DNA of 55,290 nucleotides from an uncultured Candidatus Saccharibacteria bacterium (GCA_964500025.1 CAZCMQ010000001.1:1-55290), one strand, 5' to 3'. Counted from the stretch's first letter, positions 2,036-20,083 are shown. Notes: generated by a model from the sequence alone, not told the origin. Translations and numbers: made by a program.

Positions 2036-2617
2036 TTATACTCCAGTAGTACCCACAGATTGGTATTGGTGAACGTTGAAGCGCACTAAAACTTTAGCAT
2101 TGGCAGAGCCAATTTCATTATCAATGCGATCTACGAAACCAAGAATCTGTAGAGGAAGGGTTGATGTATCCAATGCAGTTGAAGTATCTACTTGCATACC
2201 GGATGCACCAGTTGAAGTAGAACCAGCCCCAACAATAAAATTAACATTAAGACCGACACCAGCAACGGTGAGTGCACCGCCGACAGCGTCTTCTTGTGCT
2301 TCAAAAATAAGGTCTGGAGCATCTGCTACATATACAACACGATTAGTAGAAGCTGGACGATAGATAGGTACATTCAGAGCATTTGGATCTGCTTCAAAGC
2401 CTACTACGACTCCAATACCAGTATTACCTGCCGCAGCTTGCGCTACAGTAGGATAGCCGTCCGCAGAAGCGGAACCTGCTAGCTTAACAATATCTCCTAC
2501 GAAGACAGCAACGTTATCCGTTGACGGGATAAAATACTTATTAAACTGTCCATTGTAGGCAGAACCGTTAAGGTGTTTAACGGGGCGAAAACCATTAACA
2601 CGACTTACGTTTGCCAT
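2036..2617 (-). CDS. Head-module protein immediately upstream of the capsid gene (decoration/cement-like, speculative)
   Basis: 193-aa ORF tightly packed with the capsid gene (2-nt gap); function assigned from position only. Confidence 0.6.
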   Translation of the reverse strand: MANVSRVNGFRPVKHLNGSAYNGQFNKYFIPSTDNVAVFVGDIVKLAGSASADGYPTVAQAAAGNTGIGVVVGFEADPNALNVPIYRPASTNRVVYVADAPDLIFEAQEDAVGGALTVAGVGLNVNFIVGAGSTSTGASGMQVDTSTALDTSTLPLQILGFVDRIDNEIGSANAKVLVRFNVHQYQSVGTTGV

Positions 2618-2645
2618 TTAATTCTCCTTGGCCTCGCCCTGAAGT

Positions 2646-3050
2646 TTAAGAGATCTTGATCTCTCCGTATGAACCTTCAAGGGAGGGGTTTTTGATTGTG
2701 CGTTCTAGAGAGTCGAGATGATCCTGTTTGGCTTTCTGATCTTGGTTGTAGTCTTCTTTTCGTTGACGCATTAGCACTGCTTTAGTGCCTCCACCCATAG
2801 AAACAGTATTATCTCCAGTTTGTCCGACATCTAAACGCCGAGTTGATCCAGCTTTATGTTGGCGATAATCTACAATCTCGTAGCCAGCTTCTTCGAAAGA
2901 AGCTACTCGATCCTCAACATCGTTAACCCAACGATAAACAAAACCTGGATCTTGATTAGTAATTTTAAGACGATCTCTTGTGTTCAGTGGAACACGGACC
3001 GGACGGGCACTTGCCTCTTTTGTCATATTAAGCTCCTTTGATCGCTTCAT
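2646..3050 (-). CDS. Head-module hypothetical protein (likely starts at the internal Met, MTKEAS, at 3026)
   Basis: ORF between the scaffold and capsid-associated genes; starting at 3026 nearly removes the overlap with the upstream gene (3 nt instead of 23). Confidence 0.6.
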   Translation of the reverse strand: MKRSKELNMTKEASARPVRVPLNTRDRLKITNQDPGFVYRWVNDVEDRVASFEEAGYEIVDYRQHKAGSTRRLDVGQTGDNTVSMGGGTKAVLMRQRKEDYNQDQKAKQDHLDSLERTIKNPSLEGSYGEIKIS

Positions 3051-3786
3051 AATCTTTGAGATACTGCTCTTTAGTGATTCCCGCAGTGCGCATAACTTTA
3101 TGCATAATTCGAAGTTCTTCTTGACTCATGTCAGATTCGATCGTTTTTGCGGCCTTGGAAGTAGCAGACTTTGTTTCTACGGCACTTGCCTGTTGTTTGT
3201 TCGGATTTTGGAACTTTTCAGGATAAATCCGTTTTACATGCTCTGTAACCTTTTTGAGAACTTCTGCTGGAGGTACGCCTCGTTGGGCGAGTTGAGTTCC
3301 AAAAGAATCTGCAACAGCAGCTAGTTCAATGTCTGTGTGATACCATTTATTTTGATCTACCCAACGTTGAAACTCTTGTGGAGCTTCCTGTACATTTTGT
3401 TGGGGAATAGTGGCTTTTGCTGCTTGTTTAACTTGATCAATCTGTTCCGTGATTTCTTCTACACGATCCATGTCTTGATCTTCAAGAGCAGCTTTTCGTT
3501 CTGCTCGGAGAGTATTCAAGGCACGGTTGTATTCGACTTCACGGACTTGTTCATAATGTTGAACAACAGCTTTGTTATTTTGGTCTAGAGCACGAATCTT
3601 TTTATTTAACTCGTCAATCTTTTCAAACAAAGGAGCGCGAGCTACAAAGACTTCTGCTGATACCCACTTACCTGGTTCTCCATTAAATTCTTCTTTGGGG
3701 AGCCATCCTTGGCTACGGGCTTCCTGTTCTACAGGATCTACTTGAACTTCTTGTTCTTGTGTTTCTTCAGTCATTTTCTTCCTCAA
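3028..3786 (-). CDS. Putative scaffolding protein
   Basis: 252 aa, strongly charged, helical, E/K/Q-rich composition; lies between portal and capsid. Confidence 0.55.
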   Translation of the reverse strand: MRKKMTEETQEQEVQVDPVEQEARSQGWLPKEEFNGEPGKWVSAEVFVARAPLFEKIDELNKKIRALDQNNKAVVQHYEQVREVEYNRALNTLRAERKAALEDQDMDRVEEITEQIDQVKQAAKATIPQQNVQEAPQEFQRWVDQNKWYHTDIELAAVADSFGTQLAQRGVPPAEVLKKVTEHVKRIYPEKFQNPNKQQASAVETKSATSKAAKTIESDMSQEELRIMHKVMRTAGITKEQYLKDYEAIKGA

Positions 3787-4084
3787 TCACTGCGATGATG
3801 TCATCGTCGTTTAAAATAATACGACGATCTTCTTCTTGTCCAAAAGCTTTACCGGCATATTTCGCGAATAATACACGGTCACCTGTTTTGGCCCATGGAA
3901 AACCTTCATCGAAAGCCTTCCATGCATTATCACCGATAGATTCAATTACTCCGGTGACTACTGCAGCTTGTTCTAAAGCTGCTTCAGTGTGCGCTAAAAT
4001 GATACCGGATTTGGTAGCTCTCATTTGTGCATCACTGATATCTGGAATTACTACGACTCTATGTCCTGCTGGTCTAATCTTCAT
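3767..4084 (-). CDS. GroES/Cpn10-like co-chaperonin
   Basis: MKIRPAGHRVVV...TKSGIIL...TGDRVLFAKYAG...DDDIIAVIE aligns by eye with E. coli GroES (MNIRPLHDRVIV...AGGIVL...VGDIVIF...SDILAIVE) over the full length. Confidence 0.8.
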   Translation of the reverse strand: MKIRPAGHRVVVIPDISDAQMRATKSGIILAHTEAALEQAAVVTGVIESIGDNAWKAFDEGFPWAKTGDRVLFAKYAGKAFGQEEDRRIILNDDDIIAVIEEEND

Positions 4085-6406: not shown

Positions 6407-7850
6407 CTTCTATTTCCTGTTTTGTGGGATGTTCGATCATAATATCAAGAAGCATTCCTAAATAAGAGAATGCATCCACCTGATCGTCCCACTTACCGCG
6501 TGGGAATTTAGTACATTCGTCTTCAAAAGAAGGATACCAATCCTCATCTTTGTCAAATCTAACTGTTCTTGCTCTCATTCGAGCTTGAATAGACCGACTT
6601 CTCTGAATCTTGTCTTTCCCCAAGTGTTTCATTTTGATAATCTGAGGCCAGACATTCTGGAGAACCATTTCTTCTCTCAAGAAAGGTCCAATTGCCTTGG
6701 TAACTTGCATTTCCTCAAGTCCGATAGCTATTGGATCATAGGTTCTTTGGAGTTGGAGAATGAGATCTACGATTTCTCGGCCATCTAGACGGTCCCGAAT
6801 AACTTCAACAATATGTAGTTTTCTGTCTTCGTCCATTCCTCCGACCACAAATGCGGTATAATCCGCAGTTTCATTCTCAGAGATAGCCAAATCACCAGTA
6901 ATATAATAGACTAACTTCTTTTCTTTCTCTGCATCAGTCAAAGGAACAAAATCTTTTAGTTTAAAGTAGGAATAGGCAGCATCAATCGGTCTATTTAGAA
7001 ACTCTTGAGAGTAGACATCAGGGAGACCTTGAGCAATATAATCATTTCTCTTCTCCACGAAGAACTCTTTATCATACCTCTCCGGCCAAAGAAACTCAGT
7101 GAAGTCGTCATTATGTGCTTTCCACTTCACCGAAACCCAAGCACCTATCTTTTTAGTGGAGTAGAGCTTTAGTCCCTTCTCAATGCTGGTTTTCTCTCCT
7201 TCCTTCGGCATAAAAAACTCTAAAAGAGAGCCATTATGAAGAACAGTGCCCCAAACTCTACACTTTCCTGTAGGAGAGAGACAAGGTAAAAGGGCTCCAT
7301 AGAACCATCTTCTCAGTTTATCTCTTCTATCCTTATTCATCACGGCCTCATCATTCTCCAAATCATCACAAACAATGAGATCAGGACGAGTGCCGTTCCA
7401 ATTCAGACCACGGAGCTTCTGCTCCGCTCCCTTTGCAAGAATCCTGAAGGTATGTCCGTCATTCATGCGGACTATAATATCTCCCTCAGTCTCTTTTACA
7501 AAGTCAATTAAACCCTTTTCATTCTTTTTGACCCCGAAGATCTGTTGAAGTTCTTCGTTGTCTGCTAATTCTTGTCTAATATTCCCAAGAAACATGCACG
7601 CTTGGGATTCTGTGTCCGAAACAATCAAGATAAACTTAGCTTCTCTAAAGAGAGCAGAAGCCAGAATATATGCAAAAGATCCCCCAGTGGTCTTTCCATG
7701 TCCTCTAGGCGCGGCTGCTGCTACATATCTATGCTTTGAACAAGCCAGTTCCCACAACTCATAATGAAATGCAGGAGAAGGAACACTCTGATCAAACCTA
7801 GGAGAGAGAACGCTGCCTACAAACCCACTAATAACATCAGCCGTTAACAT
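6333..7850 (-). CDS. terL: Terminase large subunit
   Basis: 505 aa with Walker A-like APRGHGKTT, a DD(L)E Walker B-like segment (LIVCDDLEND) and a C-terminal nuclease-like region; sits upstream of portal. Confidence 0.9.
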   Translation of the reverse strand: MLTADVISGFVGSVLSPRFDQSVPSPAFHYELWELACSKHRYVAAAAPRGHGKTTGGSFAYILASALFREAKFILIVSDTESQACMFLGNIRQELADNEELQQIFGVKKNEKGLIDFVKETEGDIIVRMNDGHTFRILAKGAEQKLRGLNWNGTRPDLIVCDDLENDEAVMNKDRRDKLRRWFYGALLPCLSPTGKCRVWGTVLHNGSLLEFFMPKEGEKTSIEKGLKLYSTKKIGAWVSVKWKAHNDDFTEFLWPERYDKEFFVEKRNDYIAQGLPDVYSQEFLNRPIDAAYSYFKLKDFVPLTDAEKEKKLVYYITGDLAISENETADYTAFVVGGMDEDRKLHIVEVIRDRLDGREIVDLILQLQRTYDPIAIGLEEMQVTKAIGPFLREEMVLQNVWPQIIKMKHLGKDKIQRSRSIQARMRARTVRFDKDEDWYPSFEDECTKFPRGKWDDQVDAFSYLGMLLDIMIEHPTKQEIEDDEYADELAESGWSNAGRNTTTGY

Positions 7851-8361
7851 TTACGACTTCAATCACTTCCACTCTCTTTTTAGAAAACTCTTCGAATTTC
7901 TTTGCAAGATTGAGCAGAAGATCTGTCTGTTGTTGTTTCTCCTCAACTGGCTTTTTCTCCAATTGAGTGGATCTCTCAAGAAGATCCTTGGCTACAGTGT
8001 GAGCATCTCGAAGTTGTACAGGCTTTCTCCGCATTTCTCCGGTTTTCTGGTCATAGATCCATTCCCCATTCTCAAGCCTATCCAGCGACACATCTAAAGC
8101 CTTATTAGCAATAGCCTTCAATTTATTAGAAAGAGTGATAGTATTCTCAGTCTTGATCTCATTAACGAGTTCAGTCCACCATTTAGAATATCTCCATTCC
8201 TTCATAGTGGTGAGTTTAATATCCAAGGCAGCAGCAGTCGCTGACAGATTACCTGTCACCAACCACAGCTTCACTGCTTCCAATTTCTGAGAATCAGAGT
8301 ACCACCCTTTGGTAATTCTTTTCTTTTTGGACTTTATGTGTGGAATTTTGTCGCTTAACAT
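7837..8361 (-). CDS. terS: Putative terminase small subunit (HTH-containing)
   Basis: 174 aa directly upstream of terL with a 14-nt overlap; N-terminal HTH-like segment (SQKLEAVKLWLVTGNLSATAAALDIKLTTMKEW). Confidence 0.6.
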   Translation of the reverse strand: MLSDKIPHIKSKKKRITKGWYSDSQKLEAVKLWLVTGNLSATAAALDIKLTTMKEWRYSKWWTELVNEIKTENTITLSNKLKAIANKALDVSLDRLENGEWIYDQKTGEMRRKPVQLRDAHTVAKDLLERSTQLEKKPVEEKQQQTDLLLNLAKKFEEFSKKRVEVIEVVNVNG

Positions 8362-8569
8362 TACCCTTTAAACACTCCTTAGTGATCAGGATCTGAAACT
8401 CCTCCGGAGTCTTTACAGTATCCGCCAGTTCTATAATCTTATTAACATCCCAGTTTTCGAAATCTACTGGTACCCCATATGCCGCAGCATAGGCAGAATT
8501 CCCTACTCCCCAACAGTCCACCTGTAATTGAATAGGAAACAAAGAAAGTAAAAACATAATAAAGTTCAT
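8294..8569 (-). CDS. First gene of the leftward arm, hydrophobic N-terminus, unknown function
   Basis: AGGAG 6 nt upstream of the ATG at 8569; the consensus promoter lies about 20 nt further upstream; overlaps the terS start by 68 nt. Confidence 0.55.
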   Translation of the reverse strand: MNFIMFLLSLFPIQLQVDCWGVGNSAYAAAYGVPVDFENWDVNKIIELADTVKTPEEFQILITKECLKGNVKRQNSTHKVQKEKNYQRVVL

Positions 8570-8590
8570 GTTATTCTCCTAATGTGTTAC

Positions 8591-8619
8591 ATTATAACAC
8601 AACTGTATCTTTTTGTCAA
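8591..8619 (-). promoter_or_regulatory. Consensus sigma70-type promoter for the leftward arm (TTGACA-17 nt-TATAAT)
   Basis: Minus-strand reading: TTGACAaaaagatacagttgtgtTATAAT, with TGTGTTATAATGT shared with the promoter at 23619. An inverted repeat GTGTTA..TAACAC (8584-8600) overlaps the -10. A palindrome half-site abuts the -35. Confidence 0.65.
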
Positions 8620-8629
8620 TACATGTTAC
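8619..8629. repeat. Half-site of the TAACAT-NN-ATGTTA palindrome (ATACATGTTAC) abutting the -35 of the leftward promoter
   Basis: Read directly; matches one arm plus the centre of the full palindromes. Confidence 0.5.
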
Positions 8630-8938
8630 CTGAAAAAATTATAAAAAATTTATCATACTCTGTTTCCGAGCTCCGTCAGGAGCGAGTTTTCCCCCCTGGG
8701 GGGTCGATTTTTGAGGGGTCGGGAGGGGGGCTGTCGAAGAGGCTGACAGGGTGATTGCTTACTAACAAGCACTTGCACGCTGGCGCCTCATATACTTTGC
8801 TTACAGTTTTCCTACTGTTAGTTAGTGTTTACCTACGTCTTTATGGGTCGCGGACTATGCTTATGGCAGGGTACGCGGCCGGCCTAGGGTGGCCCGAAGG
8901 CAGGGTTCGGCAGGGGGTTGATGTTGCGTGCGAGCAAC

Positions 8939-8950
8939 AACATGCATGTT
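8939..8950. repeat. Palindrome copy AACATGCATGTT
   Basis: Perfect 12-bp palindrome in a non-coding stretch. Confidence 0.85.
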
Positions 8951-9090
8951 AGATCGAGGTAGGGTTTTCCTGATTCTTTTTTTTCGGCACAGCACTTGTT
9001 TTCGTGCTACTCTATAGATCCGTAGTGATTTTTTGGAGTAAATGAGAATGATTCGCAAATTGGTAGGTCTGGTCGGCGGGAGGGGTTGAC

Positions 9091-9300
9091 ATGGCGATGA
9101 CCCGCGCAGAACTCATGGAGTTCGCCGAACTCTCGGCGGCGCTCGCCAAGGACAACGGCTGGAACTACGCCGACCCCGTGGCCACGCACCAAGAAAATCT
9201 CATGGACACCATGGCCGAGCACGGGATCAGGAACCCCGATTACAGTGATGCGCTTGATCTCTACGCGCGGCTTGTCCGCCAATTCGGATTGAGGGGTTGA
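9091..9300 (+). CDS. GC-rich island ORF, 69 aa, unknown function
   Basis: GGGAGGGG Shine-Dalgarno 5 nt before the ATG; GC-rich third codon positions. Confidence 0.6.
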   Translation: MAMTRAELMEFAELSAALAKDNGWNYADPVATHQENLMDTMAEHGIRNPDYSDALDLYARLVRQFGLRG

Positions 9301-9434
9301 CATGCGGACACCGATCTTCGCACGGGCGAGGTGATGAGCATGTGGCCGGCCGATGCGGCGTATGCGGCCCGAGTGCTCGGGTGGCCCCTAGTGGATCAGA
9401 GGGGCTATTGGGCGGATTCTAACTGGAGCTGACC

Positions 9435-9614
9435 ATGAAACTGATCAAAAACTTTCCCGACAACCGGACTAAGGTTTACCAGCAAGATGGCGAGTATATC
9501 GTCCGATTCTTTGACGCCGATGGACGGCATCTGCCCGATGCTGATTATTTTACCGACGACAAAACCGACGCCTTGGCGACTGCCTCGGTGCGATGGATGA
9601 ATCTGGGAGACTGA
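9435..9614 (+). CDS. GC-rich island ORF, 59 aa, unknown function
   Basis: Not in the track (below 60 aa). GGAG 6 nt before the ATG. Sequence: MKLIKNFPDNRTKVYQQDGEYIVRFFDADGRHLPDADYFTDDKTDALATASVRWMNLGD. Confidence 0.55.
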   Translation: MKLIKNFPDNRTKVYQQDGEYIVRFFDADGRHLPDADYFTDDKTDALATASVRWMNLGD

Positions 9615-9685
9615 CATCTAGGCCGAAACCTAGCCCCTCCGGGGGCGATGGTCTGCCGGTATGTGCCGGTACTGACGAGGCTATC

Positions 9686-9892
9686 ATGACACTTCAAGGA
9701 AAAACGGACATGAACCCGCCATTTACGGTCCACCTCACGCGCACCGACTATTCCGCTATCCGCACGGCGCTCTTACTGTATCTGTGGAAGGTACAGGATC
9801 GCATCAAGGGTGGACAGGCAAATCCGTGGGATGCCGGCACCCTGATGAAAATTCAACGCGCATTAAATGCCATCGAGAATCAGTGCAAATAA
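9686..9892 (+). CDS. GC-rich island ORF, 68 aa, unknown function (shorter start within track ORF 9593..9892)
   Basis: GAGG 5 nt before the ATG at 9686; followed by the hairpin terminator at 9907. Confidence 0.55.
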   Translation: MTLQGKTDMNPPFTVHLTRTDYSAIRTALLLYLWKVQDRIKGGQANPWDAGTLMKIQRALNAIENQCK

Positions 9893-9906
9893 TTGACAGG
9901 AATCAC

Positions 9907-9928
9907 AGCCGGCCTAGCGCCGGCTTTT
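9907..9928 (+). terminator. Intrinsic terminator-like hairpin AGCCGGC-ctagc-GCCGGCT + TTT
   Basis: 7-bp GC stem, 5-nt loop, short T run, 15 nt after a stop codon. Confidence 0.6.
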
Positions 9929-9942
9929 AACATGTATGTTAA
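9927..9942. repeat. Palindrome copy TTAACAT-GT-ATGTTAA
   Basis: 7+2+7 inverted repeat; exact reverse complement of the copy at 11818-11833. Confidence 0.85.
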
Positions 9943-9945
9943 GTT

Positions 9946-9959
9946 AGTGAGTACTCACT
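9946..9959. repeat. Second perfect palindrome AGTGAGTACTCACT
   Basis: 14-bp perfect palindrome 3 nt after the previous palindrome. Confidence 0.8.
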
Positions 9960-10063
9960 TCGGAAAAAAGCATGCCAGCCTGGGTTAGGGTTTTCCCTAA
10001 TGTAAGTTTGTATGGGTCGCGGGCGACTAATATACAGACAAGTGTCAGACACTGCGGTTAAAC

Positions 10064-10079
10064 TGGCATGGGTTTTGCT
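10064..10079 (+). promoter_or_regulatory. Sigma54-like -24/-12 element (TGGCAT-N5-TTGCT)
   Basis: ctGGcatgggttttGCtt with GG-N10-GC spacing, about 195 nt upstream of ORF 10274; single occurrence. Confidence 0.3.
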
Positions 10080-10183
10080 TGCAAAATAGTTCTTGTGCCC
10101 GACGTCGGAATACGCTACAATGGGAGTATGGGTCTATGGATTGACTATTGATTCTGGTGTACCGATAGAAAAAATTCATTGGC

Positions 10184-10197
10184 TAACATGCATGTTA
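10184..10197. repeat. Palindrome copy TAACATGCATGTTA
   Basis: Perfect 14-bp palindrome 77 nt upstream of ORF 10274. Confidence 0.85.
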
Positions 10198-10273
10198 CGC
10201 GTGACAGGCCGCCCCGAATCATGAGACTATATGTGTACGGTCACTGTTGACCGCACCTACAGGAGATTGAAAA

Positions 10274-11140
10274 ATGGAAAATGCTACTGCTGTCGTCGCT
10301 GACGGACATTTAGAGCCGATCGGTAAATCGGATGCGCTGGTGCCCCAAGCGATCACTGGTCAGGGTATCGCAAACCTGCTGGCGGAAATCTCGGACGTGT
10401 CCCGCGCTGCGGGACTGGCCGCCACGAAAGCCAAGTTTGAAACGCTGCTGGCCGGAATTTTCGCGCTTGGTCAGGATGCCTTCAAAACCGTCAAAAAAGA
10501 CTTCCGCGATGCGAGGAAAGCGCAGGGATACGAGGATTCCTCGCAGCGGGCGACTGATCTGCACGCAATTTGGGGGGCGAATCAGTGGATCAAACTCCCT
10601 GTGCTGGACGAGAATGGTCAGCCGCTGTATGACACTGTGGTACAGATCGGGGCGGACGGCAAGCCCGTCATGAATCCTAATGATGCGCAGGCGACCGTCG
10701 AAATTCCTCGTATGGCGAATTGGATGCCGCAGGAATCGGAGTATGCATGGAATTCCTGCACCAATGCTGCGCGCGCTGCGCTGAAACTGGCCGGAATCAC
10801 TCCGACCGGCGGAAAGATTTTGACCGACGAGCAAAAAGAGGCGAACAAGGAAAAACGCCTCACGTCGAAAGCCGTGGAAGAGGCGAAGGTTGATCCGATG
10901 ACGCTGTTGTCTATGGCGCCTGAGGAACGGGTCAAGGTGTTGCAGGATCTGGACACGGCGATCCAGAAAAAGCGCGAAGAATTGGAGTACAATGCGCTCG
11001 AAAAATCGGCTGCCCGGATCGGCAAGCGGCTGCTGGAAGATTATTCCGGGCAGGATCTGCTGGATATGCTGACGCTGATCTGCCGGGAAGCCGGATATAA
11101 CTGCCATCTGGAAAAGAGAATCGCCGAAGCCGCCGAGTAA
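10274..11140 (+). CDS. GC-rich island ORF, 288 aa, unknown function
   Basis: AGGAG 7 nt before the ATG and a hairpin terminator 7 nt after the stop; the shadow ORFs on both strands are typical of GC-rich DNA. Confidence 0.7.
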   Translation: MENATAVVADGHLEPIGKSDALVPQAITGQGIANLLAEISDVSRAAGLAATKAKFETLLAGIFALGQDAFKTVKKDFRDARKAQGYEDSSQRATDLHAIWGANQWIKLPVLDENGQPLYDTVVQIGADGKPVMNPNDAQATVEIPRMANWMPQESEYAWNSCTNAARAALKLAGITPTGGKILTDEQKEANKEKRLTSKAVEEAKVDPMTLLSMAPEERVKVLQDLDTAIQKKREELEYNALEKSAARIGKRLLEDYSGQDLLDMLTLICREAGYNCHLEKRIAEAAE

Positions 11141-11146
11141 TCAACT

Positions 11147-11167
11147 AGCCCCCTAATGGGGGCTTTC
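11147..11167 (+). terminator. Hairpin AGCCCCC-taat-GGGGGCT + TTC
   Basis: 7-bp GC stem immediately after the stop of 10274..11140; weak T run. Confidence 0.5.
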
Positions 11168-11183
11168 TCATTAGGAATGAAAC

Positions 11184-11399
11184 ATGGCTTATCAAGTTTG
11201 CTTTTGGGCAAAAGACGGACCGAATGGTGAATCCCATCTTCGCACGGTCCGTCTTACTCGGGTGGCACAGGCCGAATCAATAGCACGGCATCGGATCTTA
11301 GGATGTGTCAGGGTGACCCTTGAACGCACCGACGGTCCGCCGGAAAAGCGGATTCTACGGAATCTGTTTATCAAGCCCGGATACAAAGATCCGTTCTAA
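11184..11399 (+). CDS. GC-rich island ORF, 71 aa, unknown function
   Basis: AGGAA-type SD upstream of the ATG; the stop codon TAA is the first arm of the palindrome at 11397. Confidence 0.6.
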   Translation: MAYQVCFWAKDGPNGESHLRTVRLTRVAQAESIARHRILGCVRVTLERTDGPPEKRILRNLFIKPGYKDPF

Positions 11400-11410
11400 C
11401 ATGCATGTTA
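11397..11410. repeat. Palindrome copy TAACATGCATGTTA
   Basis: Perfect 14-bp palindrome overlapping a stop codon and directly preceding a terminator hairpin. Confidence 0.85.
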
Positions 11411-11431
11411 AAGCCCCTAACGGGGCTTTTT
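11411..11431 (+). terminator. Intrinsic terminator AAGCCCC-taac-GGGGCTT + TTT
   Basis: 7-bp stem, tetraloop, T run. Confidence 0.7.
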
Positions 11432-11449
11432 CCATTTTGGAGTGTAAGA

Positions 11450-11647
11450 ATGAAGCCCGAACAAAAGTTTGATGGTTGGGGAAACCATTGGTTAGTAAAT
11501 CCAAAGACAGGCAAACACTCCGTAATATGCCCATATAAAGGATATGTTTATTTCGAAGGGTGGGTAGGCTGCACGGATTACTATATTTCCGGCGGGGGGG
11601 TTTTTTCTCCCGAGGAATTTATTAAACATACCGCCTTCATGGAATAA
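11450..11647 (+). CDS. Hypothetical protein, 65 aa (start moved downstream of the terminator)
   Basis: GGAG 8 nt before the ATG at 11450; the track start at 11405 would place the terminator hairpin inside the gene. Confidence 0.6.
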   Translation: MKPEQKFDGWGNHWLVNPKTGKHSVICPYKGYVYFEGWVGCTDYYISGGGVFSPEEFIKHTAFME

Positions 11648-11757
11648 ATCTTGTTGTGAATTTTCAACGCTAAATGAAGCGGTTGAATATGTTCATGATT
11701 GTTAGATACAAGGAAAAATCATGATATGGGTATTCTTATATCTGGTAGCTGTAGCTT

Positions 11758-11946
11758 TTGTTCTTCTTTTTTTTAGGGGGTCGAAAATTGTCAGCGGTGA
11801 TTAAAGGGTTCACTTATTTAACATACATGTTAACTTTTTTAAGTGGAATGTTTATCCATCATTTACCATTCCTTTTACTGGTATTGGTAATCCTGGGGGC
11901 TTTCCAACTAATAGTGGTAGAAAAATGGACTTCAGCACACTTTTGA
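11758..11946 (+). CDS. Small hydrophobic ORF (start uncertain; may start at ATG 11828 inside the palindrome)
   Basis: Predicted TM-like stretch LPFLLLVLVILGAFQLIVV; contains palindrome copy 11818-11833. Confidence 0.35.
   Translation: MFFFFLGGRKLSAVIKGFTYLTYMLTFLSGMFIHHLPFLLLVLVILGAFQLIVVEKWTSAHF
11818..11833. repeat. Palindrome copy TTAACAT-AC-ATGTTAA
   Basis: Reverse complement of the copy at 9927-9942; lies in AT-rich DNA outside the GC island. Confidence 0.85.
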
Positions 11947-15715: not shown

Positions 15716-16318
15716 GTGCCTATGGGCACGATGTCCTTGGAAACCTTTAAAAAATTAGGTGAACAAGTAAGTTCTATTGATCCTGAATTTCTACAAGAAA
15801 ATGATGTGCTAGTTCTGTGGGGAGGGGAAGATATTTCTTCTCATTTTTATGGGGAGAAACCCACATATACATACGCTGGTTCACCATCCCGTCGAGATGT
15901 GATCGAACAACGTATGTTCAATTCCGCTGTTTCAAAGGGATTGCCTATCATTGGTGTCTGCCGTGGAGCACAGTTAGCTTGTGCTCTATCTGGCGGCCGT
16001 TTATATCAAGATATTCAGCATCCTGGCATGCATTACATGTCATGTAATGACGGAAAACAGCGCGTCTCTAATTCTGTGCATCATCAAATGATGCGGCCTG
16101 ATGACACTGATCATCAGCTAATTGCTTGGACAAACAATCTTTCCCCTTATCATAAAACAGAAGAAGGTGATGTTGGGGAAGTAGAACAAGAACCAGAGAT
16201 TGTTTATTTCAATAAAACTAAAGCTCTAGCAATTCAAGGCCATCCAGAATTTGTTCCTAATGGACATCCATTTCATACTTATGCTTGTGAGTTAATTGAT
16301 GCCTACAGTATCAAGTAG
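15716..16318 (+). CDS. Class I glutamine amidotransferase / peptidase C26 (gamma-glutamyl hydrolase-like)
   Basis: Nucleophile elbow IIGVCRGAQL and the His/Glu motif AIQGHPEF. Confidence 0.85.
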   Translation: MPMGTMSLETFKKLGEQVSSIDPEFLQENDVLVLWGGEDISSHFYGEKPTYTYAGSPSRRDVIEQRMFNSAVSKGLPIIGVCRGAQLACALSGGRLYQDIQHPGMHYMSCNDGKQRVSNSVHHQMMRPDDTDHQLIAWTNNLSPYHKTEEGDVGEVEQEPEIVYFNKTKALAIQGHPEFVPNGHPFHTYACELIDAYSIK

Positions 16319-16703
16319 TATTACTGGATGTGGCATGGGCCACATTAGTTCCCTGAACTTCAATAGTAAAAAAACCACACAAGACTTTATTGCGGTCTTG
16401 GAACGAGTATTAAGAGGTACAGCAAAAGCAAAAAACAAAAAGTATCGAATGTATACTTATACACTAGCTAACACTCAATTACTACCCGATAACATGAACA
16501 TCATGAAAACAAATGATGATAATAGAGGGTGGTTTTATATACATGCACATCCATTTTTTGTAAAAGCATTCCGACCGAAAAAAATTCTAGAATGGGAAAA
16601 CAGCATTCATTCTTACAATAAGAACGTTATGTTTTCATTCAAATTAACAGATGAAGGTCTTGCTAAATTAAAAAAACTCCTAAAGGAACATAATATTTTA
16701 TGA
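16296..16703 (+). CDS. Hypothetical protein inside the amidoligase cluster
   Basis: Track ORF; alternative start ATG 16335. Confidence 0.6.
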   Translation: MMPTVSSSITGCGMGHISSLNFNSKKTTQDFIAVLERVLRGTAKAKNKKYRMYTYTLANTQLLPDNMNIMKTNDDNRGWFYIHAHPFFVKAFRPKKILEWENSIHSYNKNVMFSFKLTDEGLAKLKKLLKEHNIL

Positions 16704-17446
16704 GACTTGGTTTTGATCCTGAATTTTTTCTTAAAAGCAAAAGTGGTGTTTTTATTTCTTCTGTTGGACTTATTGGTGGATCTAAAGAATTTCCTTTAGA
16801 TATTGGAGAAGGTTGTGCACTACAAGAAGACAATGTTGCGGTCGAGTTTAACACCCCACCATGTAGCTCACCTGAAGAGGCGATACGGTATTTTCAATAC
16901 GCCAAAGAAAAAACAATCGAAAAAATCCAAGATATGGGGCTTGAAATCGCAATTGTCCCATCGGCCGTATTCGATCCATCGGAATTGGATCATCCTTCGG
17001 CTAGGAGATTCGGATGCGATCCGGATTACAATGCCTGGACGTTTGAAGAAAATCCTCGACCACAAGCGGAGAATTCAAACCTTCGTTCAGCGGGAGGTCA
17101 CATCCACGTTGAAACTGACAAAAACATCATTCAAGTGGTACGTGCGTTGGATGTTTACGTGGGAGCCTGGCTTTCACAACGAGATATGGATACGCAAAGA
17201 CGACTATTATATGGGAAAGCCGGAGCCTTTCGTCCCAAAGATTATGGTGTAGAGTACCGTACTCCCTCTAATTATTGGATTTCTACTGACGATCTTATTA
17301 GCCGAACTTGGTGGCAAGTAGAAAAAGCCCTCAAATATGTCGATCAAGGAAAGGAAATTCCTGTTCGGGATGACATCATTGAGGCGGTAAATAATGCAGA
17401 TAAAAGGATCTATAAGAAACTAGACAAGGAATTTGCAATTGAATAA
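16700..17446 (+). CDS. COOH-NH2 ligase (phage phiEco32-type amidoligase family, from memory)
   Basis: LGFDPEFF..., EDNVAVEFNT, FGCDPDYNAW, AGGHIHVE, GVEYRTP: the pattern I associate with the glutamate-cysteine-ligase-like phage COOH-NH2 ligases. Confidence 0.75.
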   Translation: MRLGFDPEFFLKSKSGVFISSVGLIGGSKEFPLDIGEGCALQEDNVAVEFNTPPCSSPEEAIRYFQYAKEKTIEKIQDMGLEIAIVPSAVFDPSELDHPSARRFGCDPDYNAWTFEENPRPQAENSNLRSAGGHIHVETDKNIIQVVRALDVYVGAWLSQRDMDTQRRLLYGKAGAFRPKDYGVEYRTPSNYWISTDDLISRTWWQVEKALKYVDQGKEIPVRDDIIEAVNNADKRIYKKLDKEFAIE

Positions 17447-17948
17447 AGATGATGTAATTTCTGATTTCACTAAAAAATACCATGACACTTATTTATTTGC
17501 AAACCCTTGCTCATCTTTTGATTTGTTTCATGTCACATTAAGCGAAAAAGATAAAATCACATTATTTAATGATGATTTGGGAAACTTCACCACCTTTTTT
17601 GGTGGAACTGTAGAATTAAATGTCAAGTATCCGAAAACTGGGTATTTTGAACACGAAGATAAAATTTATTTTATTATTAGAAATCCACAAAGACAGTGGA
17701 AGCGTGGAATTAATTCAGGAACATTTCATATTCTCGTAAATGGATCTAATTTAGTCAAAAAATGGTCCACTTCTTTAGTTAAAGCTAGTTTCAACGATCC
17801 AACAAATGTGGCTGAGCGTTATGAAAAAGCAAAAAAGGGAGAGAAAACTCTAATCAATCGAGATTGGATTTATTCTGATGGTGTATACTTCAAACTCAGA
17901 AAAATGCCACTTCCGTTGAAAGAATATGAATCATGTATCCTAAAATAA
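17433..17948 (+). CDS. Hypothetical protein inside the amidoligase cluster
   Basis: 171-aa packed ORF. Confidence 0.65.
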   Translation: MQLNKDDVISDFTKKYHDTYLFANPCSSFDLFHVTLSEKDKITLFNDDLGNFTTFFGGTVELNVKYPKTGYFEHEDKIYFIIRNPQRQWKRGINSGTFHILVNGSNLVKKWSTSLVKASFNDPTNVAERYEKAKKGEKTLINRDWIYSDGVYFKLRKMPLPLKEYESCILK

Positions 17949-18712
17949 AAATTTCAGAAATTTTTCCCGTTCCTCCGTTAAAAGTTATTAATTTGTCGGA
18001 GTCTTTCAAGAAGAAATACAGTTCTTATATTTCTTCAGAGAGACTTTTGGGAATTGAACTGGAAATTGAAAAACCGTTTTTTAGAACTAAATGTTCTAGT
18101 GCTATTTGGAGCGGAACAAATGACGGTAGTTTGCGAAACGGTGGAATAGAGTTCAAAAGTGCGGGGCCGATGAAATTTTGTGATTTGGTTCCAAGTCTTA
18201 CTTATTTTAAAGAATCACTTTCTTATGTGATTTCTCCACGATGCTCTTCTCATGTTCATGTCAATGTAGGGGATCTGGATTTTAATGCTGTAGAACGTAT
18301 TTTTACGTTTTACATGCATATAGAGAAAGATTTATTCAAGTTCGTTGGAAAAAATCGCAATAAAAATATTTATTGTATTCCATTGTGGGATACTACCTAC
18401 GGATTGCGTCCGTTTAAAGAAGCGGTACAGATACAGTCAAAAAATAACCAAATTAAGGTAAATTGGAGCAAATATACCGCATTGAATTTTGCTACCATTC
18501 CGACACTAAATACTATAGAATTTAGACATTATCCAGGATTATCGGAAATTCCTCATTATATCTCTTTTATTTCTATCCTGGAGAATATGATTAAGTTTTG
18601 TGAATCTAATAATCCATTAGATTTGTCCTATTCAGAAATGTGCTCTGTTGTGAATCTGTCTATTAATAGACAAGAATTTGATAATACTCGTCTACTTTAT
18701 TCCGGAGAATAA
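17933..18712 (+). CDS. Amidoligase (glutamine-synthetase-like 'Amidoligase_2' type, from memory)
   Basis: LGIELEIE, TNDGSLRNGGIEFKS, SSHVHVNV, TIEFRH motifs. Confidence 0.75.
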   Translation: MYPKIKISEIFPVPPLKVINLSESFKKKYSSYISSERLLGIELEIEKPFFRTKCSSAIWSGTNDGSLRNGGIEFKSAGPMKFCDLVPSLTYFKESLSYVISPRCSSHVHVNVGDLDFNAVERIFTFYMHIEKDLFKFVGKNRNKNIYCIPLWDTTYGLRPFKEAVQIQSKNNQIKVNWSKYTALNFATIPTLNTIEFRHYPGLSEIPHYISFISILENMIKFCESNNPLDLSYSEMCSVVNLSINRQEFDNTRLLYSGE

Positions 18713-18715
18713 TAA

Positions 18716-20083
18716 ATGTGTGGTTTGGTAGGAATGCTGAGTAAGCGAAAGCTTGGACTCAATCACGAAGAAATCAATGCTTTCAAGGATCTTCTAACAA
18801 TTGATGTTCTCCGTGGAAAAGATTCTACGGGTGTTTTTAGTGTCGCGAAAAGGGAGTTACAGTTATTTAAGGTTGCTACGCATCCGATGAATGCGTATGA
18901 CACCAAAGAATGGAAAGAATTCGAATCAGACGCACGAAGAAACAGTAAGGTACTGGTGGGCCATAACCGGGCTGCGACGAGAGGGACTGTAAACAGTAAT
19001 AACGCTCATCCGTTCTTAGAAAATAATATTTGCTTAGTTCATAATGGAACTTTGTTTAATCACACAAATCTGAATAAAGATTCAGAAGTAGATAGTCATG
19101 CGATTGCTGTAGCTTTATCAAAAAACAACAATGTTGATGAAGTAATTAATTCCATTTATGGAGCTTTTGCATTAATTTGGTTTAATTCGGATACTAATGA
19201 AGTTATTTTTACGCGGAATAAGGATCGTCCCTTGTTTTATGCTGAAAATAATGACATGGTGGCCATCGGTTCTGAATATCTACCATTGTTTTACTCTTTA
19301 GGTAGAAATAAAATTGATCCAAAAGACATCATTCAAGAAGTTCCAGTTGATGAGATTTTTACCTTTAGTGGAAAGACTTTAAAGAGGAGGAAACTGGCTA
19401 CTCCAGACCCAAAAGGTCATTCGATTTTGAGTGGTGGGAAACACAAATCGGAAACCTCCTCCACTAAAACCAAAGTTATCTTCCATATGGAAGAACTCAA
19501 GAATTATGCAGGGGTTGAAGGAGTTCTAGCACTAGGTAAAATCATTCTTCCGGAAACATTTAAGGGAGAAGATTGTCGCATTACTCTTGAAGGATGGGAA
19601 AAAGAATTTGCAGATGATCTGTTAAATCAGCCATTTTACGAAGCTGAAATTGATCATGTTTCCTATCATAATAGAGGTTCTATGTATTGGTTGTCTTATT
19701 CTTCTCTTAACATGTATGTTGGAGAAGAGTGTGATACATTAGATGAACCAATTCCTACTGCTATTCGGGATCATGTCATTGAGCGTCATTTGTGCGATGA
19801 ATGTGCAATGCCGTTTTCAAAATATAATTTTCATGGTGCCCAAGTTATTCTAGATCCCGCAGATTGCACAATAACTACAACCTGCTCTGATTGCGTCAGA
19901 GCAGAGATGTTTAAAACAGATCCAGAGTTAGGAGATAAGTTCGATGAGTATTTTAATTCTCCCGTACAAGAAAGGAAGCAGAAGCGCGCGAACTTTATGC
20001 ACACATTTGAAAAAATTTCAAACATGCGTGCTCGTTCGACCGGATCTTCCCATCAATCTAAAGAAACACCAGCTTCTAGTTAA
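18716..20083 (+). CDS. Class II (Ntn) glutamine amidotransferase with C-terminal Cys-rich extension
   Basis: N-terminal MCGLVG (Cys nucleophile), GHNRAATRG, NAHPF, LVHNGTLFN; C-terminal CDEC...CSDC. Confidence 0.85.
   Translation: MCGLVGMLSKRKLGLNHEEINAFKDLLTIDVLRGKDSTGVFSVAKRELQLFKVATHPMNAYDTKEWKEFESDARRNSKVLVGHNRAATRGTVNSNNAHPFLENNICLVHNGTLFNHTNLNKDSEVDSHAIAVALSKNNNVDEVINSIYGAFALIWFNSDTNEVIFTRNKDRPLFYAENNDMVAIGSEYLPLFYSLGRNKIDPKDIIQEVPVDEIFTFSGKTLKRRKLATPDPKGHSILSGGKHKSETSSTKTKVIFHMEELKNYAGVEGVLALGKIILPETFKGEDCRITLEGWEKEFADDLLNQPFYEAEIDHVSYHNRGSMYWLSYSSLNMYVGEECDTLDEPIPTAIRDHVIERHLCDECAMPFSKYNFHGAQVILDPADCTITTTCSDCVRAEMFKTDPELGDKFDEYFNSPVQERKQKRANFMHTFEKISNMRARSTGSSHQSKETPASS
19707..19720. 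repeat. Intragenic match to the palindrome (TTAACATGTATGTT)
   Basis: 14-nt identity with the copy at 9927; lies inside the amidotransferase CDS and may be coincidental. Confidence 0.4.

What the first reader, a model, noticed from the sequence alone, without database searches (positions are those of the whole stretch)
8650..11650. Abrupt GC-rich island of about 3 kb at the very start of the rightward (early) arm of an otherwise AT-rich phage
Composition switches sharply within a few tens of nt. DNA to the left of about 8650 and to the right of about 11650 is AT-rich, like the rest of the genome. The segment between is visibly G+C-rich.
- Its ORFs have GC-rich third codon positions.
- Long shadow ORFs appear on both strands at 10310-11144.
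- Its hairpins are C/G-run hairpins.

It carries at least six short ORFs with good Shine-Dalgarno sites (9091, 9435, 9686, 10274, 11184, 11450) that match nothing I recognise. It also has three GC hairpin terminators and two long ORF-free stretches (about 8650-9090 and 9943-10273).

Its position, next to the divergent promoter region and presumably the first DNA expressed, is where phages keep host-takeover and anti-defence genes. A composition gap this large inside one small phage genome is unusual. It suggests recent acquisition from a high-GC donor, a selected property of this DNA or RNA, or an assembly chimera.
Basis: partly seen in the sequence, partly recalled or inferred. Interest (0 to 1): 0.75.

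Follow-up and report, generated by a model that had tools for sequence, protein, structure and literature searches.

The report
GC-rich first early genes of phage
The GC-rich 2.7 kb block is a genuine part of this phage: it holds the first rightward (probably earliest-expressed) genes, written in a different codon dialect from the rest of the genome, and related phages show the same thing at the same place, so it looks like a maintained trait rather than an artefact or a one-off gene transfer.

Summary
The block at about 8665-11360 is 54% GC against 40% elsewhere. GC3 is 0.49-0.77 in its ORFs against 0.23-0.40 elsewhere, and the left edge switches from 22% to 59% GC within 100 nt.

It is not a chimera. 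Independent assemblies from other samples, 94-100% identical, carry the block joined to both arms on contigs up to 46 kb.

It begins at a divergent promoter region that is conserved across the clade. It consists of two or three short units ending in hairpin terminators. These hold small orphan ORFs and a 288-aa gene under purifying selection (pN/pS 0.11).

The main finding is that the GC rise is a property of the position in the whole clade:
- In 16 of 16 related phages (terminase 49-63% identical), the positional 190-310-aa early gene has higher GC3 than that phage's terminase, by 0.25 on average.
- Divergence of that gene tracks terminase divergence (Spearman 0.70), which points to vertical descent.
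- Excess GC3 peaks 1-3 kb from the promoter in 20 of 22 relatives.

The block avoids AGA, TTA, ATA and ACA. Relatives encode tRNAs for exactly such A-ending codons.

Best reading: immediate-early genes are kept in host-like codons and composition. Gene flux from GC-richer phages and selection on the DNA itself remain rivals. All protein functions are unknown.

The parts
8591..8619 (-). Leftward promoter with a perfect sigma-70 consensus (TTGACA, 17 nt spacer, TATAAT, with TG before the second hexamer), in front of the 91-aa gene and the terminase genes
   Evidence: Promoter scan, 12 of 12 matches. The stretch 8590-8622 is conserved in distant relatives L034, L014 and L049.
8613..8659 (+). AT-rich rightward (early) promoter region. 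The GC-rich block starts directly downstream of it.
   Evidence: A weak TTGTCA-18-AATTAT match. The stretch 8633-8655 is conserved at 91-95% in distant relatives L004, L082 and the Alcaligenes phage L084. GC is 22% at 8550-8649. The transcription start is inferred, not shown.
8665..11360 (+). The GC-rich block itself, at its maximum-likelihood boundaries
   Evidence: 54.2% GC against 40.2% outside. Profiles. Codon usage. CpG.
8650..9090 (+). ORF-free leader, 51.5% GC. It contains a C6-T-G6 hairpin plus T-run at 8688-8703 and palindrome copy 1.
   Evidence: ORF list, terminator scan, fold z-score only -2.3. Among strains, 8650-8730 and 8836-9019 are conserved and 8731-8835 is variable.
8939..8950 (.). 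Palindrome AACATGCATGTT, copy 1. Other copies lie at 9929-9940, 10185-10196, 11398-11409 and 11820-11831, and a sixth at 19709-19720.
   Evidence: 7 matches with up to one mismatch, against 0.66 expected. Context of each copy. The copies at 8939, 9929, 10185, 11820 and 19709 are intact wherever a strain contig covers them, although the flanks vary; the 11398 copy is lost with a deletion.
9020..9414 (+). Strain-specific cassette, 60% GC, carrying ORF 9091-9300 and a 32-aa ORF at 9334-9432
   Evidence: Absent from L086, L087, L089 and L091-L094. L090 lacks 9094-9290, through the 21-nt repeats at 9073 and 9284.
9091..9300 (+). 69-aa acidic orphan ORF with a strong ribosome-binding site; GC3 0.77
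   Evidence: No relatives found.
9435..9614 (+). 59-aa ORF, identical protein in all strain variants
   Evidence: Matches phrog_7884 at E 1.2e-11. Distant relatives in Pseudomonas phages Phi-S1, Alpheus, phiPMW and phiPto-bp6g. Seen on at least 23 contigs.
9617..9685 (+). Weak candidate type II hammerhead ribozyme between two ORFs. This is a side observation, not an established part.
   Evidence: RF02276 at 23.1 bits against a gathering score of 37, with the core letters present. The minimum-energy fold is different. The L086-type strains have lost one stem arm.
9686..9892 (+). 68-aa orphan ORF
   Evidence: Identical in L086. Strongly diverged in L090, with pN/pS about 1.1.
9907..9925 (+). Terminator hairpin GCCGGC...GCCGGC followed by T4, ending the first unit
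   Evidence: Read from the sequence. In L090 it is replaced by a different hairpin, GCGCC-TTCG-GGCGC plus T4, so the structure is kept.
9893..10273 (+). Second ORF-free stretch, 46% GC, with palindrome copies 2 and 3
   Evidence: The block 9908-10127 is almost invariant in three strain lineages while both flanks vary. Fold z-score -2.2. No Rfam match. A TTGTGC-17-TACAAT promoter at 10093-10121 is my own reading of the sequence.
10274..11140 (+). 288-aa gene, the main protein of the block
   Evidence: pN/pS 0.11 against L086, from 40 synonymous and 14 non-synonymous differences. The only remote relative among 1.84 billion representatives is P0002. Profile match to the positional gene of L082 and of the Alcaligenes phage (gp60): 60% probability, E 8e-5. 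The structure model is poor, pLDDT 47.
11147..11164 (+). Terminator hairpin after the 288-aa gene
11184..11399 (+). 71-aa orphan ORF; GC3 0.49
   Evidence: Its 3' part lies in 11249-11706, a segment absent from L086-type strains, so its coding status is uncertain.
11410..11429 (+). Terminator hairpin at the right edge of the GC-rich block, directly after palindrome copy 4
   Evidence: GC drops across this point.

Best explanation
The block is the phage's first rightward, probably immediate-early, set of transcription units. It starts at a divergent promoter region conserved across the clade. It ends at hairpin terminators near 9.92, 11.16 and 11.43 kb.

It carries fast-evolving small orphan genes and one 288-aa gene under purifying selection.

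Its composition is distinct from the backbone:
- 54% GC, with GC3 up to 0.77.
- No CpG depletion.
- Near-absence of AGA, TTA, ATA and ACA codons.

This composition belongs to the position in the whole phage clade. It is not the trace of a single recent transfer.

Most likely mechanism (inferred). Genes that must be translated in the first minutes, using only the host's tRNA pool and in competition with host mRNA, are kept in host-preferred G/C-ending codons. The AT-rich remainder of the genome is expressed later, and in many relatives with the help of phage-encoded tRNAs for A-ending codons.

Shown: the block is real, contiguous and conserved in position across the clade, and its codon usage is split from the backbone.

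Inferred: the timing of expression, the match to host codons, and selection as the cause.
For: Real and contiguous.
- Logan contigs L003 (7716-8962), L001 (8967-11448) and L002 are 100% identical to the window.
- The 45-46 kb contigs L086 and L087 from other samples, and the ENA contig L090, are 91-99% identical to the window over their aligned stretches. L086 and L087 carry the block joined to both arms; L090 (5.5 kb) covers only the left junction.
- The block in L086 is 51.6% GC against 41.4% for the whole locus.

A trait of the clade.
- Relatives show a GC rise just beyond the AT trough next to the small terminase gene.
- The positional 190-310-aa early gene (families 0 and 1, related to each other at 96% hhalign probability, and family 2 with the window's gene) has GC3 above that phage's terminase in 16 of 16 phages. 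The mean excess is +0.25, and one phage reaches 0.88 against 0.30.
- Similarity within this gene family tracks terminase identity, Spearman 0.70 over 78 pairs, which points to vertical descent.
- Excess GC3 averages +0.12 at 1-3 kb from the small terminase start (17 of 21 and 20 of 22 loci). It falls to +0.02 to +0.05 beyond 5 kb.

Codon level.
- AGA is 3% of Arg codons in the block and 40-43% in the backbone.
- CTG is 49% of Leu against 8-13%.
- ATC is 73% of Ile against 28-31%.
- ACA is 3% of Thr against 25-30%.
- The shift is larger in coding than in non-coding DNA: CpG observed/expected rises from 0.59-0.77 to 1.25 in coding DNA, and from 0.72 to 0.90 in non-coding DNA.

tRNAs. Relatives encode tRNA-Arg(TCT), Leu(TAA), Ile(TAT), Gly(TCC) and Thr(TGT), which read A-ending codons. 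In 5 of 8 relatives with tRNA genes in the early arm, ORFs upstream of the tRNAs have higher GC3 than those downstream.

No decay signal. Polarised strain substitutions in the block are balanced: 35 AT-to-GC against 38 GC-to-AT.

Precedents.
- Early and late phage genes differ in synonymous codon usage in half of 14 phages studied (PMC5683454).
Against: - The host is unknown, so the match to host codons is untested.
- There are no expression data, so the early timing is inferred from position only.
- Non-coding DNA in the block is also GC-enriched: 0.49-0.52 against 0.37. Codon selection alone does not explain that.
- The window itself has no tRNA gene.
- The tRNA ordering holds in only 5 of 8 relatives.
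- The cultured relative, the Alcaligenes phage, shows only a small excess of +0.07.
- The substitution test has low power. About 44 GC-to-AT against 29 AT-to-GC would be expected under decay towards the backbone, giving a one-sided p of about 0.06 (my calculation).
- Late structural genes are usually the most highly expressed, yet they are not the codon-adapted class here.
Confidence: 0.5

Rival explanations
1. Gene flux. The start of the early arm is a hypervariable slot that keeps receiving cassettes from other, GC-richer phages of the same relatively GC-rich hosts. The block is GC-rich because its contents are young and have not yet decayed towards the backbone composition.
For: - Strain-level indels occur inside the block. 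The 60% GC cassette 9020-9414 is present only in the window's lineage, and partly in L090.
- ORF 9435-9614 has its only relatives in Pseudomonas phages, one of them at the left end of a T7-like genome.
- Most ORFs have no relatives at all.
- The dinucleotide and CpG signatures differ from the backbone.
- Non-coding DNA is shifted as well.
- Identity between strains is lower in the block (94.4%) than in the flanks (97-98.5%).
Against: - The main positional gene is GC3-rich in 16 of 16 relatives and co-diverges with the terminase. A gene inherited vertically for that long should have decayed to the backbone composition.
- The block shows no excess of GC-to-AT changes.
- A strain-specific cassette just outside the block (L086 12044-12430) is AT-rich at 35% GC. 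Flux alone therefore does not make DNA GC-rich; the position matters.
- No donor was found for any gene.
Confidence: 0.25
2. Selection on the DNA itself. A host-like GC content in the first-expressed DNA keeps host proteins or defences that target AT-rich foreign DNA (H-NS or MvaT-type silencers) off the early operons until early proteins neutralise them.
For: - Non-coding parts of the block are also GC-enriched.
- The GC step begins exactly at the promoter.
- The backbone is probably much more AT-rich than the host, as the tRNA set for A-ending codons in relatives suggests.
- There is a precedent that phages must counter such silencers with an early protein: LUZ24 gp4 against MvaT (PMC8501957).
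Against: - The promoter region is the most AT-rich DNA in the genome (22% GC), so it would itself attract silencers.
- The coding shift is much larger than the non-coding shift.
- The host and any silencer it has are unknown.
- No protein in the block resembles a known silencer inhibitor.
Confidence: 0.12
3. GC-biased gene conversion. The early region is a recombination hotspot, and repair of recombination intermediates biased towards G and C raises its GC content without any selection.
For: The block is the most mosaic part of the genome among strains, with patchy divergence and indels. GC is raised in both coding and non-coding DNA.
Against: - The adjacent region to the right (11.7-12.5 kb) is just as mosaic but AT-rich.
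- No tool here measures a repair bias, and I know of no demonstration of this process in phages (from memory).
- The strongest signal is in specific codons.
Confidence: 0.05
4. Assembly chimera joining phage DNA to unrelated GC-rich DNA.
For: Only the sharp compositional step.
Against: - Independent assemblies from at least nine other runs carry the same arrangement. L086 and L087 (45-46 kb contigs) carry both junctions, and the ENA assembly L090 confirms the left one.
- The same palindrome occurs inside the block and beyond its right edge.
- Relatives have the same architecture.
Confidence: 0.01

Closest known systems
[quoted passage not shown]
   Same: Genes of one temporal class use a different set of synonymous codons from the rest of the genome, partly linked to the host tRNA pool, GC content and phage tRNAs.
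   Different: - The split here is extreme: GC3 0.6-0.77 against about 0.3, and AGA 3% against 40%.
- It is confined to the first 2.7 kb rather than to all early genes.
- It has a step-like edge at the promoter and also affects non-coding DNA.
- It is shown to recur across a clade in spite of gene turnover.
- The timing of expression is not measured here.
Leading region of conjugative plasmids (bioRxiv 10.1101/2025.04.03.647016)
   Same: The first-expressed part of a mobile element is GC-richer and better codon-adapted than the rest. It is packed with small genes thought to act immediately on entry.
   Different: - This is a phage, not a plasmid.
- Entry order and any single-stranded phase are unknown.
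- No anti-defence gene is recognisable.
- The scale is 2.7 kb rather than about 25 kb.
Morons and compositional islands in phage genomes, such as the segmental GC structure of lambda (from memory)
   Same: A sharply bounded segment with its own terminators and atypical composition, with cassette gain and loss between strains.
   Different: The GC rise is tied to a position and persists in vertically inherited genes of distant relatives. That is not expected of a recently added moron.
Host-takeover early regions of lytic phages, such as the T7 class I genes and the LUZ24 early gene gp4 acting on MvaT (PMC8501957)
   Same: Small, poorly conserved genes directly downstream of host-type promoters at the start of the early arm.
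   Different: No protein in the block matches any known takeover or anti-defence protein. I know of no description of a GC-rich composition for those regions (from memory).

Membership tests
Recently acquired compositional island (moron) | Composition clearly different from the backbone | tested here: met
   54% against 40% GC, a GC3 gap of about 0.3, and CpG rho 1.10 against 0.66.
Recently acquired compositional island (moron) | Absent from close relatives, or patchy among them | tested here: inconclusive
   The block as a whole is present in every strain contig that covers the region. Only the sub-segments 9020-9414 and 11249-11706 are patchy.
Recently acquired compositional island (moron) | Closest relatives of its genes lie in a donor lineage of matching composition | tested here: inconclusive
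   Only ORF 9435-9614 has distant relatives, in Pseudomonas phages. The others are orphans.
Recently acquired compositional island (moron) | The same position in more distant relatives has ordinary backbone composition | tested here: not met
   Relatives are GC3-enriched at the same position: 16 of 16 positional genes, and 20 of 22 loci at 2-3 kb.
Early-versus-late codon usage split | Synonymous codon usage of the class differs from the rest of the genome | tested here: met
   Codon tables for 550 codons in the block against 4790 and 7308 backbone codons.
Early-versus-late codon usage split | The genes are expressed in a distinct, early time class | not testable with these tools
   Only position and promoter or terminator predictions are available.
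Early-versus-late codon usage split | The early-class codons match the host's tRNA pool or its highly expressed genes | not testable with these tools
   The host was not identified. Terminase relatives occur only in metagenome bins of inconsistent taxa.
Early-versus-late codon usage split | Phage tRNAs serve the codons favoured by the other class | tested here: inconclusive
   Relatives carry tRNAs for AGA, UUA, AUA, GGA and ACA. The window has no tRNA gene. The ordering relative to the GC-rich block holds in 5 of 8 relatives.
Plasmid-type leading region | It is the first DNA to enter the recipient cell | not testable with these tools
   The contig is circular through a 55-nt overlap. The physical ends and entry polarity are unknown.
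Plasmid-type leading region | Enriched in recognisable anti-defence genes | tested here: not met
   No functional match in Pfam, PHROGs or PADLOC. None of these libraries is dedicated to anti-defence proteins, so this is a weak test.
Hammerhead ribozyme type II (RF02276), side observation at 9617-9685 | Core letters CUGANGA, GAAA and a GUH cleavage triplet in the right order with three stems | tested here: met
   The cmscan alignment spans the full model with the core letters present.
Hammerhead ribozyme type II (RF02276), side observation at 9617-9685 | Score at or above the family's gathering threshold | tested here: not met
   23.1 bits against 37. E is 0.17 for 3.4 kb, which scales to about 3 for the whole window.
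Hammerhead ribozyme type II (RF02276), side observation at 9617-9685 | Stems kept in relatives, ideally with compensatory changes | tested here: not met
   L086-type strains delete one arm of stem I and change GUC to GUG. L090 changes G10.1 to A. The minimum-energy fold is a different structure.
Anti-CRISPR operon with its regulator (acr-aca) | A helix-turn-helix regulator gene in the operon that binds inverted repeats in its promoter | tested here: not met
   Palindromes are present, but no ORF in the block has a helix-turn-helix match.

The most novel reading that the evidence does not exclude
A phage counterpart of the plasmid leading region. In this clade of roughly 50-kb lytic phages, the first 2-3 kb downstream of the early promoter would be under a position-specific compositional rule that mimics the host: high GC, normal CpG and host-type codons. 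The rule would apply to whatever genes sit there, so it persists through complete gene turnover. It would act on translation, and perhaps also on the DNA, in the first minutes of infection. New cassettes would survive in this slot only if they are, or become, GC-rich.
Probability: 0.3. Interest if true: 0.7.

Novelty: new variant of a known kind. Interest (0 to 1): 0.5.

Why it matters
If the reading is right, base composition alone marks the immediate-early genes in a whole group of uncultured phages. That gives a cheap way to find host-takeover and anti-defence candidates in metagenomic phage genomes.

It would also be phage evidence for an idea just proposed for plasmids: the first-expressed DNA of a mobile element is tuned to the host's translation machinery.

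It is also a caution. A sharp GC island in a phage genome should not automatically be read as a recent transfer or a chimera.

The 288-aa gene and its positional relatives are conserved in place, fast-evolving and of unknown function. They are obvious targets for experiments.

Tried and rejected
Searches that found nothing.
- Nucleotide and protein searches of the block against GenBank phages found nothing for the whole block or the 288-aa gene.
- Word-indexed searches of 5.8 billion proteins returned only self-hits for three ORFs.
- The exhaustive HMMER search found one remote relative.
- Pfam, PHROGs, PADLOC and a PDB profile search gave no function.
- The single-sequence structure model of the 288-aa protein was too poor to search with (pLDDT 47). 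I therefore did not use fold search.
- Rfam found nothing at gathering thresholds in the window.

Ideas tested and rejected.
- The two ORF-free stretches share only short motifs, not a common RNA. Their fold z-scores are unremarkable.
- Palindromes as cassette borders or as terminal inverted repeats of a mobile element: rejected, because strain indel borders lie elsewhere and no transposase is present.
- The exact palindrome is not shared with relatives, although several relatives have repeated palindromes of their own.

Inconclusive.
- Host inference from GTDB gave only metagenome bins of conflicting taxa.
- Polarised substitution counts were too few to separate equilibrium from decay.
- Right-junction look-ups with downstream ORFs found no single short contig spanning it. 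The long contigs settled the point.

Full report

Yes.
- The window averages 40.8% GC. A two-change-point likelihood fit places a 54.2% GC segment at 8665-11360 against 40.2% outside, a gain of about 102 nats.
- It is the highest of all 2.8-kb windows: 0.533 against a mean of 0.406 (sd 0.036).
- The left edge is abrupt. 8550-8649 is 22% GC and 8650-8749 is 59%.
- The right edge is softer and lies near the terminator at 11410-11429.
- GC3 of the ORFs inside the block is 0.49-0.77. It is 0.23-0.40 in 15 backbone genes.
- The ORFs, the shadow ORFs, the two ORF-free stretches and the hairpin terminators are all present.
- The window closes on itself through a 55-nt terminal repeat, so it is a circularly assembled phage genome of about 55.2 kb.

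**2. What kind of phage is this?**

The leftward arm encodes the small and large terminase subunits, a 722-aa gene next to the terminase, a major capsid protein (Pfam Phage_capsid_4 on the matching gene in L086) and other large late genes.

The rightward arm follows the block with:
- a phiEco32-type ligase, amidoligase, glutamine amidotransferase and ATP-grasp cluster;
- a DnaB-like helicase and a split family A DNA polymerase;
- ThyX, a 5'-3' exonuclease and a ribonucleotide reductase.

The nearest GenBank relatives are Alcaligenes phage vB_Af_QDWS535 and an uncultured phage from Manatee Spring. Their terminases are 56% and 48% identical. IMG/VR holds many 50-55 kb relatives with terminases 41-63% identical.

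**3. Chimera?**

No.
- Short Logan contigs from SRR15237804 and SRR15237806 are 100% identical to 7716-8962, 8967-11448 and 10193-11156. The first of these spans the left junction.
- A look-up of the 59-aa protein then found the same phage species, 91-99% identical, in many other runs and in one ENA assembly.
- These include contigs of 45.7 and 46.6 kb that carry the block between the same two arms.
- In L086 the block is 51.6% GC against 41.4% for the whole locus.

**4. Anatomy**

Promoter region.
- The 22% GC stretch left of the block holds a perfect sigma-70 consensus promoter pointing left, at 8619-8591.
- It also holds an AT-rich element pointing right.
- Both stretches are conserved in distant relatives although nothing else nearby is.
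- The GC-rich DNA starts exactly downstream of this region.

Unit 1.
- A 440-nt leader, which includes a C6-T-G6 hairpin followed by a T-run.
- ORFs at 9091 (69 aa), 9334 (32 aa), 9435 (59 aa) and 9686 (68 aa).
- A terminator at 9907-9925. Strain L090 has replaced it with a different hairpin plus T-run, so the structure is kept.

Unit 2.
- A 381-nt ORF-free stretch. Its block 9908-10127 is almost invariant in three strain lineages while both flanks vary.
- The 288-aa gene.
- A terminator at 11147-11164.

Unit 3. ORF 11184 (71 aa) and a terminator at 11410-11429.

Coding status.
- The 288-aa gene is a real gene. Against L086 it has 40 synonymous and 14 non-synonymous differences, pN/pS 0.11.
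- The 59-aa protein is identical in all strains.

Palindrome.
- A 14-nt palindrome, tAACATGyATGTTa, occurs five times in intergenic positions from 8939 to 11831, and once at 19709. Only 0.66 matches are expected by chance.
- The copies at 8939, 9929, 10185, 11820 and 19709 are intact wherever a strain contig covers them, although their flanks vary. The 11398 copy is lost with the deletion in L086-type strains.

**5. Gene content and turnover**

None of the proteins has a functional match.
- The 59-aa protein belongs to phrog_7884. It has distant relatives in four Pseudomonas phages, one of them near the left end of a T7-like genome.
- The 288-aa protein has one remote relative among 1.84 billion representatives, P0002 at E 9e-5.
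- Together with P0002, it matches the gene that sits at the same position in relative L082 and in the Alcaligenes phage (gp60). hhalign gives 60% probability at E 8e-5, and four motifs are colinear.
- I treat this as a probable, not proven, positional orthologue.

Strains differ by indels inside the block.
- 9020-9414 (60% GC) is specific to the window's lineage.
- L090 lacks 9094-9290, through 21-nt direct repeats.
- L086-type strains lack 11249-11706.
- These borders do not coincide with the palindromes.

**6. The decisive comparison: relatives**

- Relatives share almost no genes with the block.
- They still show a GC rise at the same place, just beyond the AT trough next to the small terminase gene.
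- In 10 of 19 long loci it is the most GC-rich segment of the whole locus. In most of the others the top segment is one particular structural gene.
- Thirteen relatives carry a 190-310-aa early gene of one family (families 0 and 1, 96% hhalign probability) at this position. Two relatives and the window carry family 2.
- In all 16 phages this gene has higher GC3 than the phage's own terminase. The mean excess is +0.25 and the extreme case is 0.88 against 0.30.
- Similarity within families 0 and 1 tracks terminase identity, Spearman 0.70 over 78 pairs. The gene therefore descends with the phage while evolving faster; in one pair it is 56% identical where the terminase is 93%.
- Over all ORFs of 22 relatives, excess GC3 relative to the terminase is +0.12 at 1-3 kb from the small terminase start (17 of 21 and 20 of 22 loci positive). 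It falls to +0.02 to +0.05 beyond 5 kb.

A vertically inherited gene that stays GC3-rich in an AT-rich genome over this much divergence is not explained by a recent transfer. The window is simply the most extreme case.

**7. What kind of bias is it?**

Codon usage is split in two:

| Codon | Share in block | Share in backbone |
|---|---|---|
| AGA (Arg) | 3% | 40-43% |
| CGC + CGG (Arg) | 74% | about 15% |
| CTG (Leu) | 49% | 8-13% |
| ATC (Ile) | 73% | 28-31% |
| ACA (Thr) | 3% | 25-30% |
| CCG (Pro) | 48% | 10-14% |
| TCG (Ser) | 47% | 5-6% |

- The backbone is CpG-depleted (rho 0.66) and the block is not (rho 1.10).
- Non-coding DNA of the block is shifted too, but less. GC is 0.49-0.52 against 0.37, and CpG observed/expected is 0.90 against 0.72. 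In coding DNA, CpG observed/expected is 1.25 against 0.59-0.77.
- Relatives encode tRNAs for AGA, UUA, AUA, GGA and ACA. This is the usual sign of an AT-rich phage in a host that rarely uses those codons.
- In 5 of 8 relatives, ORFs upstream of the first tRNA gene in the early arm are GC3-richer than those downstream. L082 is the clearest case, 0.54 against 0.29.
- The window itself has no tRNA gene.
- Strain substitutions polarised with L090 as outgroup are balanced in the block, 35 AT-to-GC against 38 GC-to-AT. Decay towards the backbone composition would give about 29 against 44. The difference is not significant, p about 0.06 (and my arithmetic).

**8. Explanation**

The best-supported reading is that the block is the immediate-early part of the genome. 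In this clade that part is kept in a host-like composition, chiefly host-type codons. The reason would be that it must be translated at once by the unmodified host machinery.

Two precedents support this kind of explanation:
- Synonymous codon usage differs between early and late genes in half of the 14 phages studied (PMC5683454).

I put about 0.5 on this mechanism. I put about 0.9 on the narrower statement that the block is real, native and a positional trait of the clade.

Rivals:
- Continuing flux of cassettes from GC-richer phages (0.25). This is clearly true for some sub-segments, but it cannot explain the vertically inherited gene.
- Selection on the DNA itself, for example to avoid silencers that bind AT-rich DNA (0.12). 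It is supported by the non-coding shift and by the LUZ24 gp4 and MvaT precedent (PMC8501957). It is weakened by the extremely AT-rich promoter.
- GC-biased repair at a recombination hotspot (0.05).
- Chimera (0.01 or less).

**9. Limits**

- The host is unknown. Terminase relatives in GTDB sit only in metagenome bins of conflicting taxa.
- The timing of expression is inferred from position.
- All protein functions are unknown.
- The structure model was unusable.
- The palindrome's binding partner is unknown, and no helix-turn-helix protein is visible in the block.

**10. Novelty and score**

Compositional islands, early-versus-late codon differences and GC-rich plasmid leading regions are all known. 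What is new:
- a sharply bounded, position-specific, clade-wide GC and codon block at the start of a phage early arm that survives gene turnover;
- a family of positional early genes of unknown function.

I rate it a new variant of a known kind, interest 0.5.

Noticed in passing
window 9617-9685 (+): Candidate type II hammerhead ribozyme between the stop of ORF 9435-9614 and the start of ORF 9686-9892. The core letters CUGACGA, GAAA and GUC and three stems are present, and the ribosome-binding site of the downstream ORF lies in the core and stem II. However, it scores 23.1 bits against a threshold of 37, the minimum-energy fold differs, and L086-type strains have deleted one stem arm.
   Followed up: partly
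window 8939-8950, 9929-9940, 10185-10196, 11398-11409, 11820-11831, 19709-19720: A phage-specific 14-nt palindrome, tAACATGyATGTTa. It is far more frequent than chance allows and every copy covered by a strain contig is intact there (the 11398 copy lies in a strain deletion). Several relatives have their own, different, repeated palindromes in the early arm. In the Alcaligenes phage, CCTAATATTAGG lies 7-40 nt upstream of early start codons. These are probably sites for a phage regulator, which is not identified.
   Followed up: partly
window 8591-8619 (-): A perfect sigma-70 consensus promoter (TTGACA, 17 nt spacer, TATAAT, with TG) points into the structural arm that begins with the terminase genes. 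This is unexpected for genes normally regarded as late.
   Followed up: no
window 9908-10127: A non-coding block of about 220 nt is almost invariant in three strain lineages, while the sequence on both sides varies by 10-25%. No Rfam family matches it and no ORF fits it. It may be a regulatory region or a small RNA.
   Followed up: partly
window, whole backbone against 8665-11360: The backbone is strongly CpG-depleted (rho 0.66; observed/expected 0.59 in late genes). The GC-rich block is not (rho 1.10).
   Followed up: partly
window 15716-20702 (+): A phiEco32-type cluster: a class I amidotransferase or peptidase C26, a COOH-NH2 ligase, an amidoligase, a class II amidotransferase and a RimK-like ATP-grasp enzyme. 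It is also present in the Alcaligenes phage. Its product is unknown.
   Followed up: no
window 27050-28192 and 28173-28919 (+): The family A DNA polymerase is split into two overlapping ORFs: exonuclease plus the start of the polymerase domain, then the rest of the polymerase domain.
   Followed up: no
window 3767-4084 (-); L086 4730-5047: A 105-aa gene in the structural arm carries a Cpn10 (GroES-like co-chaperonin) Pfam hit in the strain variant's precomputed annotation.
   Followed up: no
L082 17235-17416; L082 10001-12258 and L046 10001-12133: A group I intron match in relative L082, exactly at the gathering score (50.2 bits). Separately, the terminase matches in L082 and L046 span about 2.2 kb instead of 1.5 kb, which suggests an insertion inside the terminase gene.
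   Followed up: no
L037 offsets 902-1879 and L076 offsets 2346-3179 beyond the small terminase start (early arm): Two relatives carry long pentapeptide-repeat proteins (repeats of the ADLSGANLSGA type) inside their GC-rich early block. Proteins of this repeat class are known DNA mimics (from memory).
   Followed up: no
window 51906-54524 (-): The second most GC-rich part of the genome (about 48-51% GC, GC2 0.55) is one 872-aa structural gene. The equivalent region is the top GC segment in several relatives. Here the cause appears to be amino-acid composition, not GC3.
   Followed up: no
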